This document shows, one piece after another, positions 5,331 through 10,741 of a stretch of DNA of 11,449 nucleotides. Each line of letters starts with the position of its first letter. Position 1 is the first letter of the stretch. This DNA comes from a virus (Duplodnaviria > Heunggongvirae > Uroviricota > Caudoviricetes). The DNA lies in IMG/VR virus record IMGVR_UViG_2703718771_000002; one strand, given 5' to 3'. The notes beneath the pieces are model-generated. The model was not told the origin of the DNA and ran no database searches. It was given only the letters and a program-made list of their open reading frames with translations. The position numbers were made by a program, and so were the translations under genes.

Positions 5331-5582
5331 ATGGAATTTCATGAAAGTGCGATTTGTGATTTTCGCGCTAACGCAAATTCAGTAAAACCACAGCCAATTG
5401 CAGTTCTTTTAAAAACAATGGGTGCGTGGGCTGTTTTATGCTTCGCCGCTGACGACACTGACGCAAGAATGGCAATAGGACAAGAGATGGAGATGGACCC
5501 GACAAACGATGAATTCATAATTTATGGCGCTCCATCTAATTACTTACTTGATACCTGCAACATTTACAACAAGGCTGCCTGA
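5331..5582 (+). CDS. Hypothetical protein, 83 aa, first gene after N (ral/sieB-equivalent position)
   Basis: ATG 5331 with SD GAGGTG 4 nt upstream. No family recognised. Confidence 0.55.
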   Translation: MEFHESAICDFRANANSVKPQPIAVLLKTMGAWAVLCFAADDTDARMAIGQEMEMDPTNDEFIIYGAPSNYLLDTCNIYNKAA

Positions 5583-7557: not shown

Positions 7558-8106
7558 ATGAATCACTTAATGGTTGACCTTGAAACAATGGGCAACGGGC
7601 CATACGCGCCAGTTATTTCTATTGGGGCGGTATTCTTTGACCCGAATACCGGAGAAACAGGAGAAGAGTTCTCGGTAAATATCTCGCTTGAGTCATCAAT
7701 GCGATATCGGGCGCGTCCTGACGCTTCAACGATTTTATGGTGGATGGAACAGAGTGAAGAAGCCAGAAAATCGCTAACCAGCAACACTCAAGAGCTTTCA
7801 ACGGCTCTTTCATGGTTATCTGAATTCATCATAAAGAACGCTAACCACAAATTCGTTCAGGTTTGGGGGAATGGAGCATCATTTGACTGCGTTATTCTCC
7901 GAAACAGTTATTCGCTGACAGGGCAGCCAGTTCCGTGGCAGTGGTGGAATGACCGCGACGTAAGAACAATCGTCGAACTTGGGAAGGTAATAGGATTCGA
8001 CCCTAAGCGAGATATGCCATTCAAAGGAACTCGCCACAACGCGCTTGATGATGCCATTCACCAAGCCAAATACGTTTCAGCGATCTGGAAAAAGTTAGCT
8101 AAATAA
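7558..8106 (+). CDS. DnaQ-like DEDDh 3-prime to 5-prime exonuclease
   Basis: 182 aa with Exo I-like VDLETMG, Exo II-like WGNGASFDCVIL and Exo III-like HNALDDAIHQAKY motifs. Confidence 0.65.
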   Translation: MNHLMVDLETMGNGPYAPVISIGAVFFDPNTGETGEEFSVNISLESSMRYRARPDASTILWWMEQSEEARKSLTSNTQELSTALSWLSEFIIKNANHKFVQVWGNGASFDCVILRNSYSLTGQPVPWQWWNDRDVRTIVELGKVIGFDPKRDMPFKGTRHNALDDAIHQAKYVSAIWKKLAK

Positions 8107-8122
8107 TCAACAGGAGAAAACC

Positions 8123-8419
8123 ATGCCAGCGCCTCTGTATGGTGCGGATGACGCGCGCCGCTGTTCCGGCAATTCCGTATCGGAGGTGCTGGATAAATTC
8201 AGGAAAAACTACGACAGGATAATGTCGCTACCGCAGGAAACGAAAGAGGAAAAGGAATTTCGCCACTGTATATGGCTTGCAGAGAAAGAAGAACGCGAGC
8301 GAATTTACCAGACATCAATCCGACCATTCCGCAAAGCCACATATACCCACTTCCCTGAATATATCGACCCGCGCCTGCGTAATTACCGCTCACGCTATGG
8401 CGCTATCAGTAATGGTTGA
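8123..8419 (+). CDS. Hypothetical protein, 98 aa
   Basis: ATG 8123 with SD AGGAG 6 nt upstream. Basic and charged; no family recognised. Confidence 0.55.
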   Translation: MPAPLYGADDARRCSGNSVSEVLDKFRKNYDRIMSLPQETKEEKEFRHCIWLAEKEERERIYQTSIRPFRKATYTHFPEYIDPRLRNYRSRYGAISNG

Positions 8420-8429
8420 GGAATTAACA

Positions 8430-8720
8430 ATGAAAACAATGAAGCTAAACATCGACCTCGGCAAATACGTTATTACCGGAACCAAACACGACCTGATTCT
8501 TAGTGAAAGAGGAATTATCAAAGAAGGTGAGAATGCAGGGAAAGAAACACTAAGTCGTATCGGTTATTACAGCAAGTTTGAGCATCTGGTTAAAGAGTTA
8601 TGCAACCGTGAAATTCTGTTATCTCAGGCGCAGACGTTACAGGATATTCAGCAGCATATCGAGACTGTATGTGTGTCACTTAGCATGGCTATTGACCAGT
8701 TCGTGGAGAGTAAATCATGA
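8430..8720 (+). CDS. Hypothetical protein, 96 aa
   Basis: ATG 8430 with SD GAGGAA 6 nt upstream. The track's longer version (from 8277) overlaps the preceding gene. Translation begins [17 protein letters not shown]. Confidence 0.55.
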
Positions 8721-8881
8721 GGGGACTTGCATACAATCCCGGCATTCTTCCGGCAGAAATGATTATTCGCCAACGCGTAAAGCCAATGCCATCGAGAGAG
8801 GAATTGCTTAAGAGAAATTCTTTTCCATCAGTGAATCAAAACAAATATCTGAATGCGATGTGGCGGAGTGGGAAGAAATGA
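8717..8881 (+). CDS. Small hypothetical protein (54 aa), translationally coupled on both sides
   Basis: ATG 8717 overlaps the upstream stop (ATGA); its own stop TGA 8879-8881 overlaps the next ATG at 8878 (ATGA). Translation [54 protein letters not shown]. Confidence 0.35.
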
Positions 8882-9378
8882 AACAAATGACACTAATTGA
8901 GATGGATGGTTTTCTGAAAGGTGAATGCATCCCACGAGATTTAAAGGTTAACGAAACAAACGCTGAATATCTTGTCCGTAAGTTCGGTGAACTTGAATCA
9001 AAACTAGAAACGGCGTTGCGGGAGTGTCGTTCTGCTGGAATCACGATTGATAACCTTGAGGCCAAGTGCGCGGCGCTGGTAGCGGAGAGTGCGGGGATGA
9101 AGAAGTTCTGCAAAGACGCTGCATTCGATGCCGATTACGAAGCAGAGCTAGGTATGGAGCGTGGTGGATTCAGTGATGCGCTTAACGAAATCAAAACCCC
9201 AGCCACCGATGCTTTCCTGGCTGAAGTCCGGGCTAAGGCGTTTGATGACCTTTGCGCGGCGTTCGTTAAGCACGCGTCGGTGTCCGGGCTGGACGATGGC
9301 GACTGCGTTACGGTGAAAGAGGCGACTGACGCTCTGCTGCATTGTGCGGAACAGCTTCACGAGGGAGTGCATTCATGA
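8878..9378 (+). CDS. Hypothetical protein, 166 aa, acidic
   Basis: ATG 8878 with SD GGAG about 9 nt upstream (alternative GTG at 8860). Its stop overlaps the Lar-like start (ATGA at 9375-9378). No family recognised. Confidence 0.55.
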
Positions 9379-9608
9379 GCAACCTACTACCATGTCCATT
9401 CTGTGGCGGCGCAGCGCACGTTGCCAGCGAAGCAGATCACCCTGAATATGGCTCTGGCGGTCGATTCTATTTCGTTCGATGCGGTACGTGTCGCGCTCAA
9501 TCTGGTAGCAAATATGCAGCGCCTGGAAATGACTGCGCGATTTTTTATTCAGAGGTTAGAGCAGAGTGGAATCAGCGAGCAAAGGAGGCAACCAGTGAGC
9601 GAAATTGA
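9375..9608 (+). CDS. Lar-like zinc-ribbon protein (putative restriction alleviation)
   Basis: ATG 9375 with SD GAGGGAG. Translation starts [16 protein letters not shown] with a second Cys pair at VRCGTC. The CPFCGG N-terminus is as I recall for the Lar restriction-alleviation family. Confidence 0.45.
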   Translation: MSNLLPCPFCGGAAHVASEADHPEYGSGGRFYFVRCGTCRAQSGSKYAAPGNDCAIFYSEVRAEWNQRAKEATSERN

Positions 9609-10191
9609 CTATCAGGCACTGCGTGAGGCGGCGGAACGTGCAATTCCAGCAATGGAACGCCTGTTAATGTTGCCAGTTGATGATGATTTGTTAAGTGAAC
9701 AGGAACTTAAAGATTACGGTGTGGATATTGATGCGCTCAACGCCTTCAAATTTCTGGCCGGACCAGAAACCGTGCTGGCACTACTGGATGAGATCAACGC
9801 ATTAGAGGAAACGCGTATCAACGATGTTTGCCGTATTGCGGAACTAACAAAACAACTGGAGTCGGCAAAATCAAAACTCAACGAGCAGCGTGAATATTAC
9901 GAGGGAGTAATCTCGGATGGGAGTAAGCGTATTGCAGAACTGGAAAGCAACGAAGTCCGTGAAGACGGAAATCAGTTTCTTGTTGTTCGCCACCCCGGGA
10001 AAACTCCTGTCATCAAGCACTGCACTGGTGACCTAGAAGAGTTTCTGCGGAAGTTAATCGAACAAGACCCGTTAGTAACTATCGACATCATTACGCATCG
10101 CTATTACGGGATTGGCGGTCAATGGGTTCAGGATGCAGTTGAGTATCTGCATATGATGTCTGACGCAGGCATTCGCATCAAAGGAGAGTGA
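9595..10191 (+). CDS. Ea22-like coiled-coil protein (ead/Ea22 family, function unknown)
   Basis: GTG 9595 preceded by the strong SD AAGGAGG. The track's ATG at 9403 would overlap the Lar-like gene by about 200 nt. The N-terminal YQALREAAERA motif and predicted coiled-coil resemble Ea22-like prophage proteins as recalled. Confidence 0.5.
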   Translation: MSEIDYQALREAAERAIPAMERLLMLPVDDDLLSEQELKDYGVDIDALNAFKFLAGPETVLALLDEINALEETRINDVCRIAELTKQLESAKSKLNEQREYYEGVISDGSKRIAELESNEVREDGNQFLVVRHPGKTPVIKHCTGDLEEFLRKLIEQDPLVTIDIITHRYYGIGGQWVQDAVEYLHMMSDAGIRIKGE

Positions 10192-10192
10192 T

Positions 10193-10741
10193 ATGACCAC
10201 TATAACCGATAAGAAACAGTATCCCAGCAAGCAATATCTTAATGAGCTGATCACCAACATAGAGTTTGCTGCAAGGGCACCAGTTGAAGTCGTGAGAGCG
10301 ATGGCAGCAGAGCTACAGAAGCGGCGCGAAGCTGATAGTGCAGAACCTGTAAGCCAAACTTACAAGTTGCCAGTTAATACACCTTGCCAAGATGCGCCAG
10401 CCCATATCTGGCTGCAAACGGCTGGAGTATGGCCAGAAGATGGCGAGTTAAGCGAATTAACGTGGTGCAGCCACAATCAGCACCATGATGACACGCTATA
10501 TGTTCGAGCTGACCTTGTGAATGGCAACTCTCCGGTAATTCCGGATGGTTGGATAAGCTGTAGTGAGCGAATGCCGGATAAGTTAATTCCGGTAATGGTC
10601 ATGTATGAAGACGGTGAGATGTGGTCTGCAATGTGGAATGGTAATCGCTGGGATGATGGCACCGAATATCCGGATCCGCACTCAGTTACGCACTGGCGTG
10701 AAATGCCAGCAGCACCGAAGCAGGAGGTTAACCGTGGCTAA
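10193..10741 (+). CDS. DUF551-domain phage protein
   Basis: 182 aa, ATG 10193 with SD AAGGAGAG. The C-terminal segment (WISCSERMPDK ... VTHWREMPAAPK) matches the DUF551 signature as recalled. Confidence 0.6.
   Translation: MTTITDKKQYPSKQYLNELITNIEFAARAPVEVVRAMAAELQKRREADSAEPVSQTYKLPVNTPCQDAPAHIWLQTAGVWPEDGELSELTWCSHNQHHDDTLYVRADLVNGNSPVIPDGWISCSERMPDKLIPVMVMYEDGEMWSAMWNGNRWDDGTEYPDPHSVTHWREMPAAPKQEVNRG

What the first reader, a model, noticed from the sequence alone, without database searches (positions are those of the whole stretch)
9375..9608. Lar-like zinc-ribbon protein as a candidate anti-restriction function
A 77-aa protein beginning [12 protein letters not shown] with a second Cys pair matches what I recall of the Lar restriction-alleviation family from Rac-type prophages. 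If so, the phage carries a counter-defence gene directly upstream of the Ea22-like gene and coupled to the preceding unknown ORF.
Basis: partly seen in the sequence, partly recalled or inferred. Interest (0 to 1): 0.4.

Follow-up and report, generated by a model that had tools for sequence, protein, structure and literature searches.

The report
Lar-family zinc-ribbon gene in prophage
The 77-codon gene is real and belongs to the Lar "restriction alleviation" zinc-ribbon family, as public databases already say, but it is only a distant relative of the one tested member, whose own function is disputed, so the anti-restriction role is a reasonable guess and not a result.

Summary
Window 9375..9608 (+) encodes a 77-aa protein, [12 protein letters not shown]…, with CxxC pairs at C7/C10 and C36/C39. 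It has a Shine-Dalgarno site, an ATGA overlap with the upstream ORF, and a 14-nt overlap with a true lambda Ea22 orthologue.

It passes Pfam PF14354 Lar_restr_allev (38.5 bits, threshold 28.6) and matches PHROG 599. It is under purifying selection (dN/dS about 0.1). RefSeq already names the identical gene "Lar family restriction alleviation protein" in 47 complete E. coli genomes. Phage HK106 encodes an identical protein.

Three things limit the functional reading:
- It fails the narrower NCBIfam Lar model (29.4 bits, cut-off 39.6) and does not match the RalR equivalog.
- It is only 26% identical to Rac Lar/RalR over 42 residues.
- It carries a 9-residue insert with a fifth conserved Cys that RalR lacks.

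Rac Lar itself is contested: restriction alleviation (King & Murray 1995) versus DNase toxin (Guo 2014). Here the residue matching RalR K52 is Q, the same change as the inactive K52Q mutant, and no RalA-like antitoxin is present.

Verdict: an ordinary, already annotated early-operon accessory gene. It is probably a counter-defence factor, with its target unproven. Low interest.

The parts
9375..9608 (+). Lar-family zinc-ribbon CDS, 77 aa plus stop
   Evidence: ORF and sequence. Pfam PF14354 38.5 bits vs GA 28.6. PHROG 599. RefSeq annotation of the identical gene. dN/dS about 0.1. AF2 model pLDDT 81.5, three strands plus a C-terminal helix.
9361..9367 (+). Shine-Dalgarno-like GAGGGAG, 7 nt upstream of the lar ATG
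   Evidence: Read directly from the sequence.
9393..9404 (+). First zinc knuckle C7-P-F-C10 (codons TGT 9393-9395 and TGT 9402-9404)
   Evidence: Sequence. C7 and C10 are invariant in 161 of 161 aligned domains.
9480..9491 (+). Second zinc knuckle C36-G-T-C39
   Evidence: C36 and C39 are invariant in 161 of 161 aligned domains.
9522..9548 (+). Subfamily-specific insert P50-G-N-D-C54-A-I-F-Y58, containing a fifth conserved Cys and absent from Rac RalR
   Evidence: In the domain alignment RalR has a gap opposite residues 50-58; C54 is present in 153 of 161 sequences. The linker from the second CxxC to WNxR is 25 aa here, 16 aa in RalR, and 16 aa is the family mode.
9567..9578 (+). Family motif W65-N-Q-R68 in the C-terminal helix; Q67 aligns with RalR K52
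   Evidence: W 159/161, N 148/161, R 155/161; the K52-equivalent position is variable (T, R, Q, N). RalR K52Q is inactive (PMC4041452).
8878..9378 (+). Upstream, translationally coupled ORF of unknown function (phrog_614; called 'EaE' in some P22-like phage records). The longest ORF starts at GTG 8860; RefSeq starts it at the ATG equivalent to 8878.
   Evidence: ATGA overlap with lar. The C-terminal 'TPATD' motif recurs directly upstream of lar only in relatives at least 64% identical.
9595..10191 (+). Ea22 orthologue; most likely start GTG 9595 with AGGAGG at 9583-9588, overlapping the lar 3' end by 14 nt
   Evidence: Pfam Ead_Ea22 model position 1 aligns to residue 2. 65% identity to lambda Ea22, aligned 1:1 from the first residue.

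Best explanation
Shown: window 9375..9608 is a genuine protein-coding gene in the leftward (PL) early operon of an E. coli lambdoid prophage. The gene order is N, cIII, kil, erf, ssb, exonuclease, abc2, DUF5405, DUF2737, EaE-like, lar, ea22, DUF551, ASCH, and then, in the sister prophage, xis and int. Tight overlaps on both sides imply co-translation with its neighbours. The protein is a four-Cys zinc ribbon (three strands) followed by a helix carrying the WNxR motif, and it belongs to Pfam family PF14354. Inferred: like Rac Lar, it is made early in infection or induction and acts as a small host-directed counter-defence factor. The most likely mode of action is to bind the type IA restriction-modification complex (EcoKI-type HsdM2S) and speed up methylation of unmodified phage or recombinant DNA, which lowers restriction. 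No lambda Ral homologue occupies that role in this operon. The confidence given here refers to this functional claim. Membership of the Pfam family is near certain.
For: Family: PF14354 above threshold; PHROG 599; sub-threshold but significant TIGR03655 match, E = 7e-7; the best structural neighbours among viral models are almost all Lar-annotated, TM up to 0.81. Real gene: dN/dS 0.09-0.12 and invariant Cys ligands. Position: it lies downstream of the recombination genes and upstream of xis and int, the same place ralR occupies in Rac, between recT and xisR. Close relatives always sit in early operons, either PL or the nin region. There is no lambda Ral homologue in the window. Reviews credit Rac Lar with enhancing methyltransferase activity of type I systems (PMC2993543; PMC10286901). 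A Lar homologue in phage Bas63 shows host-dependent importance (PMC11482910).
Against: No member of this long-linker subfamily has been tested. Identity to Rac Lar is 26% over 42 aa. The protein fails the NCBIfam Lar subfamily cut-off and shows no match to the RalR equivalog. [quoted passage not shown] In Bas63 the effect appeared in hosts without an intact type I system. No solved structure or fold match suggests how it would bind HsdM. PF14354 is very large, with many different C-terminal fusions, so a single function across the family is unlikely.
Confidence: 0.4

Rival explanations
1. It is a counter-defence or host-takeover factor with a target other than type IA restriction-modification, for example type IV methyl-dependent restriction, another defence system, or a host DNA-metabolism protein. 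The zinc ribbon would act only as a small protein- or nucleic-acid-binding scaffold.
For: The subfamily differs from RalR by a 9-residue insert with a fifth conserved Cys. The NCBIfam Lar cut-off is not met. The Bas63 Lar homologue matters in strains that lack an intact type I system but have type IV systems. The family has 1832 or more representatives, many with unrelated C-terminal extensions. The surrounding genes are mosaic accessory 'ea' genes of unknown function.
Against: No positive evidence points to any particular alternative target. The only genetic phenotype ever assigned to the family is type I restriction alleviation.
Confidence: 0.38
2. It is a RalR-like non-specific DNase toxin of a type I toxin-antitoxin pair.
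For: It shares a Pfam family with RalR, which was reported to be a Mg2+/Ca2+-dependent DNase toxin (PMC4041452). RefSeq calls K-12 RalR an endodeoxyribonuclease toxin.
Against: Six RalR positions were reported where changes reduce toxicity (14, 37, 39, 49, 51, 52). They align here to G12, S43, S45, E64, N66 and Q67. Only the Asn is kept; R49 becomes E; and K52 becomes Q, the same change as the inactive K52Q mutant. There is no hit to the RalR equivalog NF007260 (compare). No RalA-like sequence is complementary to the gene, no Rfam hit was found, and no promoter-like or terminator-like sites occur on either strand in 8700-10400. The gene is embedded by overlaps in an operon of functional phages (HK106, ST104). 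The fold shows no nuclease-like match.
Confidence: 0.1
3. It is a chance ORF, or only the 5' extension of the overlapping Ea22 reading frame (the ORF 9403..10191), and not a gene of its own.
For: An alternative frame is open across the same DNA from GTG 9403, and some public records start Ea22 there or at the position equivalent to 9514.
Against: There is purifying selection in the lar frame, a Pfam hit, and invariant Cys residues. Lambda Ea22 aligns from its first residue to GTG 9595.
Confidence: 0.01

Closest known systems
Lar / RalR of the Rac prophage, E. coli K-12 (b1348, 64 aa)
   Same: Both belong to Pfam PF14354 (RalR 53.5 bits, this protein 38.5). Both have N-terminal xPCPFCG, a second CxxC and a C-terminal WNxR helix motif. 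Both sit in the same part of the lambdoid PL operon, between the recombination genes and xis/int.
   Different: Identity is 26% over 42 aa. This protein has a 25-residue linker with an extra conserved Cys, against 16 residues in RalR. It fails TIGR03655 and gives no NF007260 match, both of which RalR passes. The K52 equivalent is Q. No RalA sRNA or rcbA neighbour is present.
Identical or near-identical proteins already in databases: WP_071532516.1 (E. coli prophages), phage HK106, Salmonella phages ST104 orf9, UAB_Phi20 and Salfasec13b gp033
   Same: 96-100% protein identity and the same neighbours, EaE-like upstream and Ea22-like downstream.
   Different: Nothing of substance differs. Some records call it hypothetical, and none reports an experiment.
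Ral of phage lambda (66 aa)
   Same: It is the proposed functional analogue: a small, early PL-operon protein that alleviates type IA restriction by enhancing modification (PMC12707154).
   Different: There is no sequence similarity. Ral lies just after N in lambda, whereas this gene lies next to ea22. The window has no Ral homologue.
Gene 32 of phage Bas63 (Lar homologue, PhageMaP preprint)
   Same: It is annotated as Lar family and has a host-dependent fitness effect, consistent with a counter-defence role.
   Different: It comes from a virulent phage. The effect was seen in hosts lacking an intact type I system. Its sequence relationship to this subfamily was not examined here.

Membership tests
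Pfam PF14354 Lar_restr_allev | Score at or above the curated gathering threshold (28.6 bits), covering the whole model | tested here: met
   38.5 bits, E = 1.4e-9, residues 3-69 on model positions 2-58 of 58.
Pfam PF14354 Lar_restr_allev | Four-Cys zinc ribbon (CPFCG … CxxC) followed by a helix with the WNxR motif | tested here: met
   C7, C10, C36 and C39 are invariant; W65, N66 and R68 are at least 92% conserved in 161 domains. The AF2 model has three strands plus a helix. Its nearest viral models are Lar-annotated. Zinc binding itself was not tested.
NCBIfam TIGR03655 anti_R_Lar (subfamily) | Score at or above the curated cut-off of 39.6 bits | tested here: not met
   29.4 bits. Rac RalR scores 55.3. 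Other members of this long-linker group also fall below the cut-off, at 30-35 bits.
NCBIfam NF007260 RalR endodeoxyribonuclease toxin (equivalog) | Score at or above 113 bits | tested here: not met
   No hit at E <= 0.01. RalR scores 166 bits.
RalR/RalA type I toxin-antitoxin system | An adjacent, oppositely oriented sRNA antitoxin with complementarity to the toxin mRNA | tested here: not met
   No Rfam hit in the window. No RalA match complementary to 9375-9608. No promoter-like or terminator-like sites on either strand in 8700-10400. This rests on sequence-level tests only.
RalR/RalA type I toxin-antitoxin system | Residues needed for RalR toxicity or DNase activity (positions 14, 37, 39, 49, 51, 52) | tested here: not met
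   They align to G12, S43, S45, E64, N66 and Q67. Only the Asn is retained, and K52 is replaced by Q, as in the inactive K52Q mutant.
Lar restriction alleviation (functional class) | Alleviation of type IA (EcoKI) restriction and enhancement of modification in vivo | not testable with these tools
   This needs plating and modification assays. No experiment on this subfamily turned up in the literature searches.
Lambda Ral family | Sequence similarity to lambda Ral | tested here: not met
   BLASTP of lambda Ral against this protein gives E = 11; tblastn against the whole window gives nothing better than E = 0.45.

The most novel reading that the evidence does not exclude
The long-linker, five-Cys Lar variant (KYAxxGNDCPxFY insert) found here and in many enterobacterial and Vibrio phages may be a functionally separate branch. 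It would neither be a RalR-type DNase nor an EcoKI modification enhancer, and would instead neutralise a different defence system. It might work together with the translationally coupled upstream 'TPATD'-motif protein, which accompanies it in both PL-operon and nin-region contexts.
Probability: 0.25. Interest if true: 0.45.

Novelty: already known. Interest (0 to 1): 0.15.

Why it matters
It matters little as a discovery. The gene and its family label are already in RefSeq, PHROGs and several phage records. The useful point is a caution about annotation. The name "restriction alleviation protein" is spread over at least 1832 cluster representatives from one 1995 genetic result on a 64-aa protein whose function was later disputed. 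This particular branch differs from that protein at the residues and in the linker that would matter. A simple plating, toxicity and DNase test on this widespread HK106/ST104-type variant would show whether the label is valid for a large part of the family.

Tried and rejected

(2) Domain fusions were uninformative. All 92 longer relatives match PF14354, but their C-terminal extensions have almost no Pfam matches (Ogr_Delta in 5, DUF551 in 2).

(3) I tested for a conserved two-gene module with the upstream ORF. The 'TPATD'-motif partner sits directly upstream only where the Lar protein is at least 64% identical. In that set the Kluyvera nin-region locus has it, and L008/L009 (70% identity over part) lack it. 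tblastn finds it in 4 of 76 loci. This is best explained as one mosaic block (the 3' end of the upstream gene plus lar) and not as a family-wide partnership.

(4) A RalA-like antitoxin was not found, by Rfam, blastn of K-12 ralA, or promoter and terminator scans. The single 14-nt exact match at 8964-8977 is in the sense orientation and lies outside lar, so it was dismissed.

(5) No lambda Ral was found elsewhere in the window.

(6) The dN/dS comparison with Salfasec13b had too few differences (5 nt) to be informative. More distant relatives were used instead.

Full report
**Observation**

ATG 9375 to TGA 9606-9608 encodes 77 aa: [77 protein letters not shown].

- It has two CxxC pairs (C7/C10 and C36/C39) and a fifth Cys at C54.
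- A GAGGGAG Shine-Dalgarno sequence lies at 9361-9367.
- The upstream ORF ends at TGA 9376-9378, so the two genes share an ATGA overlap.
- The downstream gene is a genuine Ea22 orthologue: Pfam Ead_Ea22 scores 86.7 bits.
- Started at GTG 9595 (AGGAGG at 9583-9588), that gene aligns residue 1 to residue 1 with lambda Ea22 at 65% identity. It therefore overlaps the lar 3' end by 14 nt.

**Is it a real gene?**

Yes.

- Against relatives 89-93% identical in protein (L011, L012), the lar frame gives dN/dS of 0.09-0.12. dS is saturated for more distant relatives while the protein stays alignable.
- In 13 close homologues the four ribbon Cys are invariant. In 161 aligned domains they are 161 of 161.
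- A profile of the close homologues finds 1832 representatives of 50%-identity clusters at E <= 1e-3.

**Context**

The window is 99.6% identical over its full length to a prophage of E. coli 2013C-4974. A second prophage in the same strain, at ybhC, carries the identical gene.

The window holds the immunity region and the whole leftward early operon:

- cro, cII and replication genes on the minus strand;
- on the plus strand cI, N-like, cIII, kil, Erf, SSB, exonuclease, Abc2, DUF5405, DUF2737, an EaE-like unknown (phrog_614), lar, ea22, DUF551 and ASCH. The ASCH name comes from the RefSeq annotation of the sister prophage.

In the sister prophage, xis and int follow. Rac ralR holds the equivalent position, between recT and xisR.

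No promoter-like or terminator-like site occurs on either strand in 8700-10400, which fits read-through expression from PL. Close relatives are also in early operons, but not always the same one:

- PL near int in a Serratia prophage;
- the nin region after O/DnaB in a Kluyvera prophage, with an Ea22-like gene two genes downstream;
- next to a Dam methylase in an unclassified phage contig.

**Family membership**

| Model | This protein | Rac RalR | Threshold |
|---|---|---|---|
| Pfam PF14354 Lar_restr_allev | 38.5 bits | 53.5 bits | 28.6 |
| NCBIfam TIGR03655 anti_R_Lar | 29.4 bits | 55.3 bits | 39.6 |
| NCBIfam NF007260 RalR equivalog | no hit | 166 bits | 113 |

PHROG 599 "Lar-like restriction alleviation protein" also matches at E = 1.4e-12.

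The AlphaFold model (pLDDT 81.5) has three strands and a C-terminal helix. Its best neighbours among predicted viral structures are almost all annotated as Lar, with TM up to 0.81.

RefSeq names the identical gene "Lar family restriction alleviation protein" in 47 complete E. coli genomes. Phage HK106 encodes a 100% identical protein, and ST104, UAB_Phi20 and Salfasec13b encode proteins 96% identical. The label is therefore already public.

Direct BLASTP against RalR gives 26% identity over 42 residues.

Motif-anchored alignment shows a shared core: xPCPFCG, a second CxxC, and WNxR. This protein has 25 residues between the second CxxC and the Trp, including a conserved GNDCPxFY-type insert with a fifth Cys (153 of 161). 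RalR has 16 residues there, which is also the family mode.

The protein is thus a member of the broad Pfam family. It is not a member of the narrower curated Lar/RalR groups.

**What the family name is worth**

Guo et al. [quoted passage not shown] They describe it as a Mg2+/Ca2+-dependent non-specific DNase toxin, controlled by the antisense sRNA RalA. They found toxicity-reducing changes at positions 14, 37, 39, 49, 51 and 52, and an inactive K52Q protein.

Mapping those positions through the gap-free motif anchors gives G12, S43, S45, E64, N66 and Q67. Only the Asn is kept. The Arg becomes Glu. The Lys is naturally Gln, which is the inactivating substitution.

No RalA-like element is present:

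- Rfam gives no hit in the window.
- blastn of K-12 ralA finds nothing complementary to the gene.

The gene also sits inside overlapping reading frames in functional phages. I therefore rate the DNase-toxin reading as unlikely for this protein, at about 0.1.

**Mechanism**

Shown:

- an early-operon gene, translationally coupled to its neighbours;
- a conserved small zinc-ribbon protein of the Lar family;
- no lambda Ral homologue in the same operon.

Inferred: it acts on a host defence function early in infection. The most likely action is the one assigned to Lar, binding the type IA methyltransferase core to favour de novo methylation (confidence about 0.4).

An almost equally likely alternative (about 0.38) is a different host target. 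Three things point that way:

- the divergent architecture;
- the size and heterogeneity of the family;
- the Bas63 Lar homologue, whose conditional importance appeared in hosts lacking an intact type I system but carrying type IV systems.

**The upstream partner**

That ORF (phrog_614) shares a C-terminal "TPATD…" segment with the ORF directly upstream of lar in the Serratia and Kluyvera prophages and in three viral contigs. All of these carry a Lar protein at least 64% identical. L008/L009, at 70% identity over part of the protein, lack the motif. Loci with more distant Lar genes also lack it.

Tight overlap with whatever gene lies upstream is general across the family. I read this as a shared mosaic block, not a dedicated two-component system, though the latter is not excluded.

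**Verdict**

The function remains inferred and is weaker than the name suggests. The gene is ordinary and already annotated, so interest is low (0.15). The only mildly novel possibility is that this long-linker, five-Cys branch has its own target.

Noticed in passing
window 9403-9608 (also L001 9640, L002 3553): Public records start the Ea22-like gene inconsistently. RefSeq uses the ATG equivalent to window 9514, giving a 95-nt overlap with lar. Salfasec13b uses the GTG equivalent to 9403, giving a 206-nt overlap. GTG 9595, preceded by AGGAGG, aligns 1:1 with the first residue of lambda Ea22, so both annotations are probably too long.
   Followed up: yes
window 8860-9378 and 9595-10191: phrog_368 matches both flanking genes. 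The N-terminal part of its profile matches the Ea22-like protein, and the C-terminal part matches the upstream EaE-like protein. This suggests the coiled-coil 'ea' proteins are mosaics of shared segments, and that lar is inserted between two halves that are fused elsewhere.
   Followed up: partly
L001 6371-8232 (E. coli 2013C-4974 prophage at ybhC): The sister prophage carrying the identical lar gene has its 3'-5' exonuclease gene split by an IS3-family insertion. The window's copy (7558-8106) is intact.
   Followed up: no
window 5331-5582 and 3750-4271: Two conserved phage ORFs of unknown function (phrog_2471, 83 aa, just after the N-like gene where lambda and P22 carry ral; phrog_2602, 173 aa, between cI and N) have no Pfam match. 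Neither resembles lambda Ral.
   Followed up: partly
window 8123-8419: A P22-type Abc2 anti-RecBCD gene (Pfam 203 bits) lies about 950 nt upstream of lar, so the same operon already carries one established host-nuclease countermeasure.
   Followed up: no
L008 4833-5435 / L009 524-1126: In an unclassified phage contig, a Lar relative (70% identity over the domain, with a 40-aa C-terminal extension) lies two genes downstream of a Dam-family methyltransferase. This is possibly relevant to a methylation-linked role.
   Followed up: no
window 8964-8977: There is a 14-nt exact match to K-12 ralA (blastn-short E = 0.006) inside the upstream ORF. It is in the sense orientation and is judged to be chance or irrelevant.
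   Followed up: partly
window 10193-10741; relatives: Two distant Lar-domain proteins are fused to DUF551, and a DUF551 gene lies two genes downstream of lar in this window. This may hint at a functional link, or may just reflect shared mosaic neighbourhoods.
   Followed up: no
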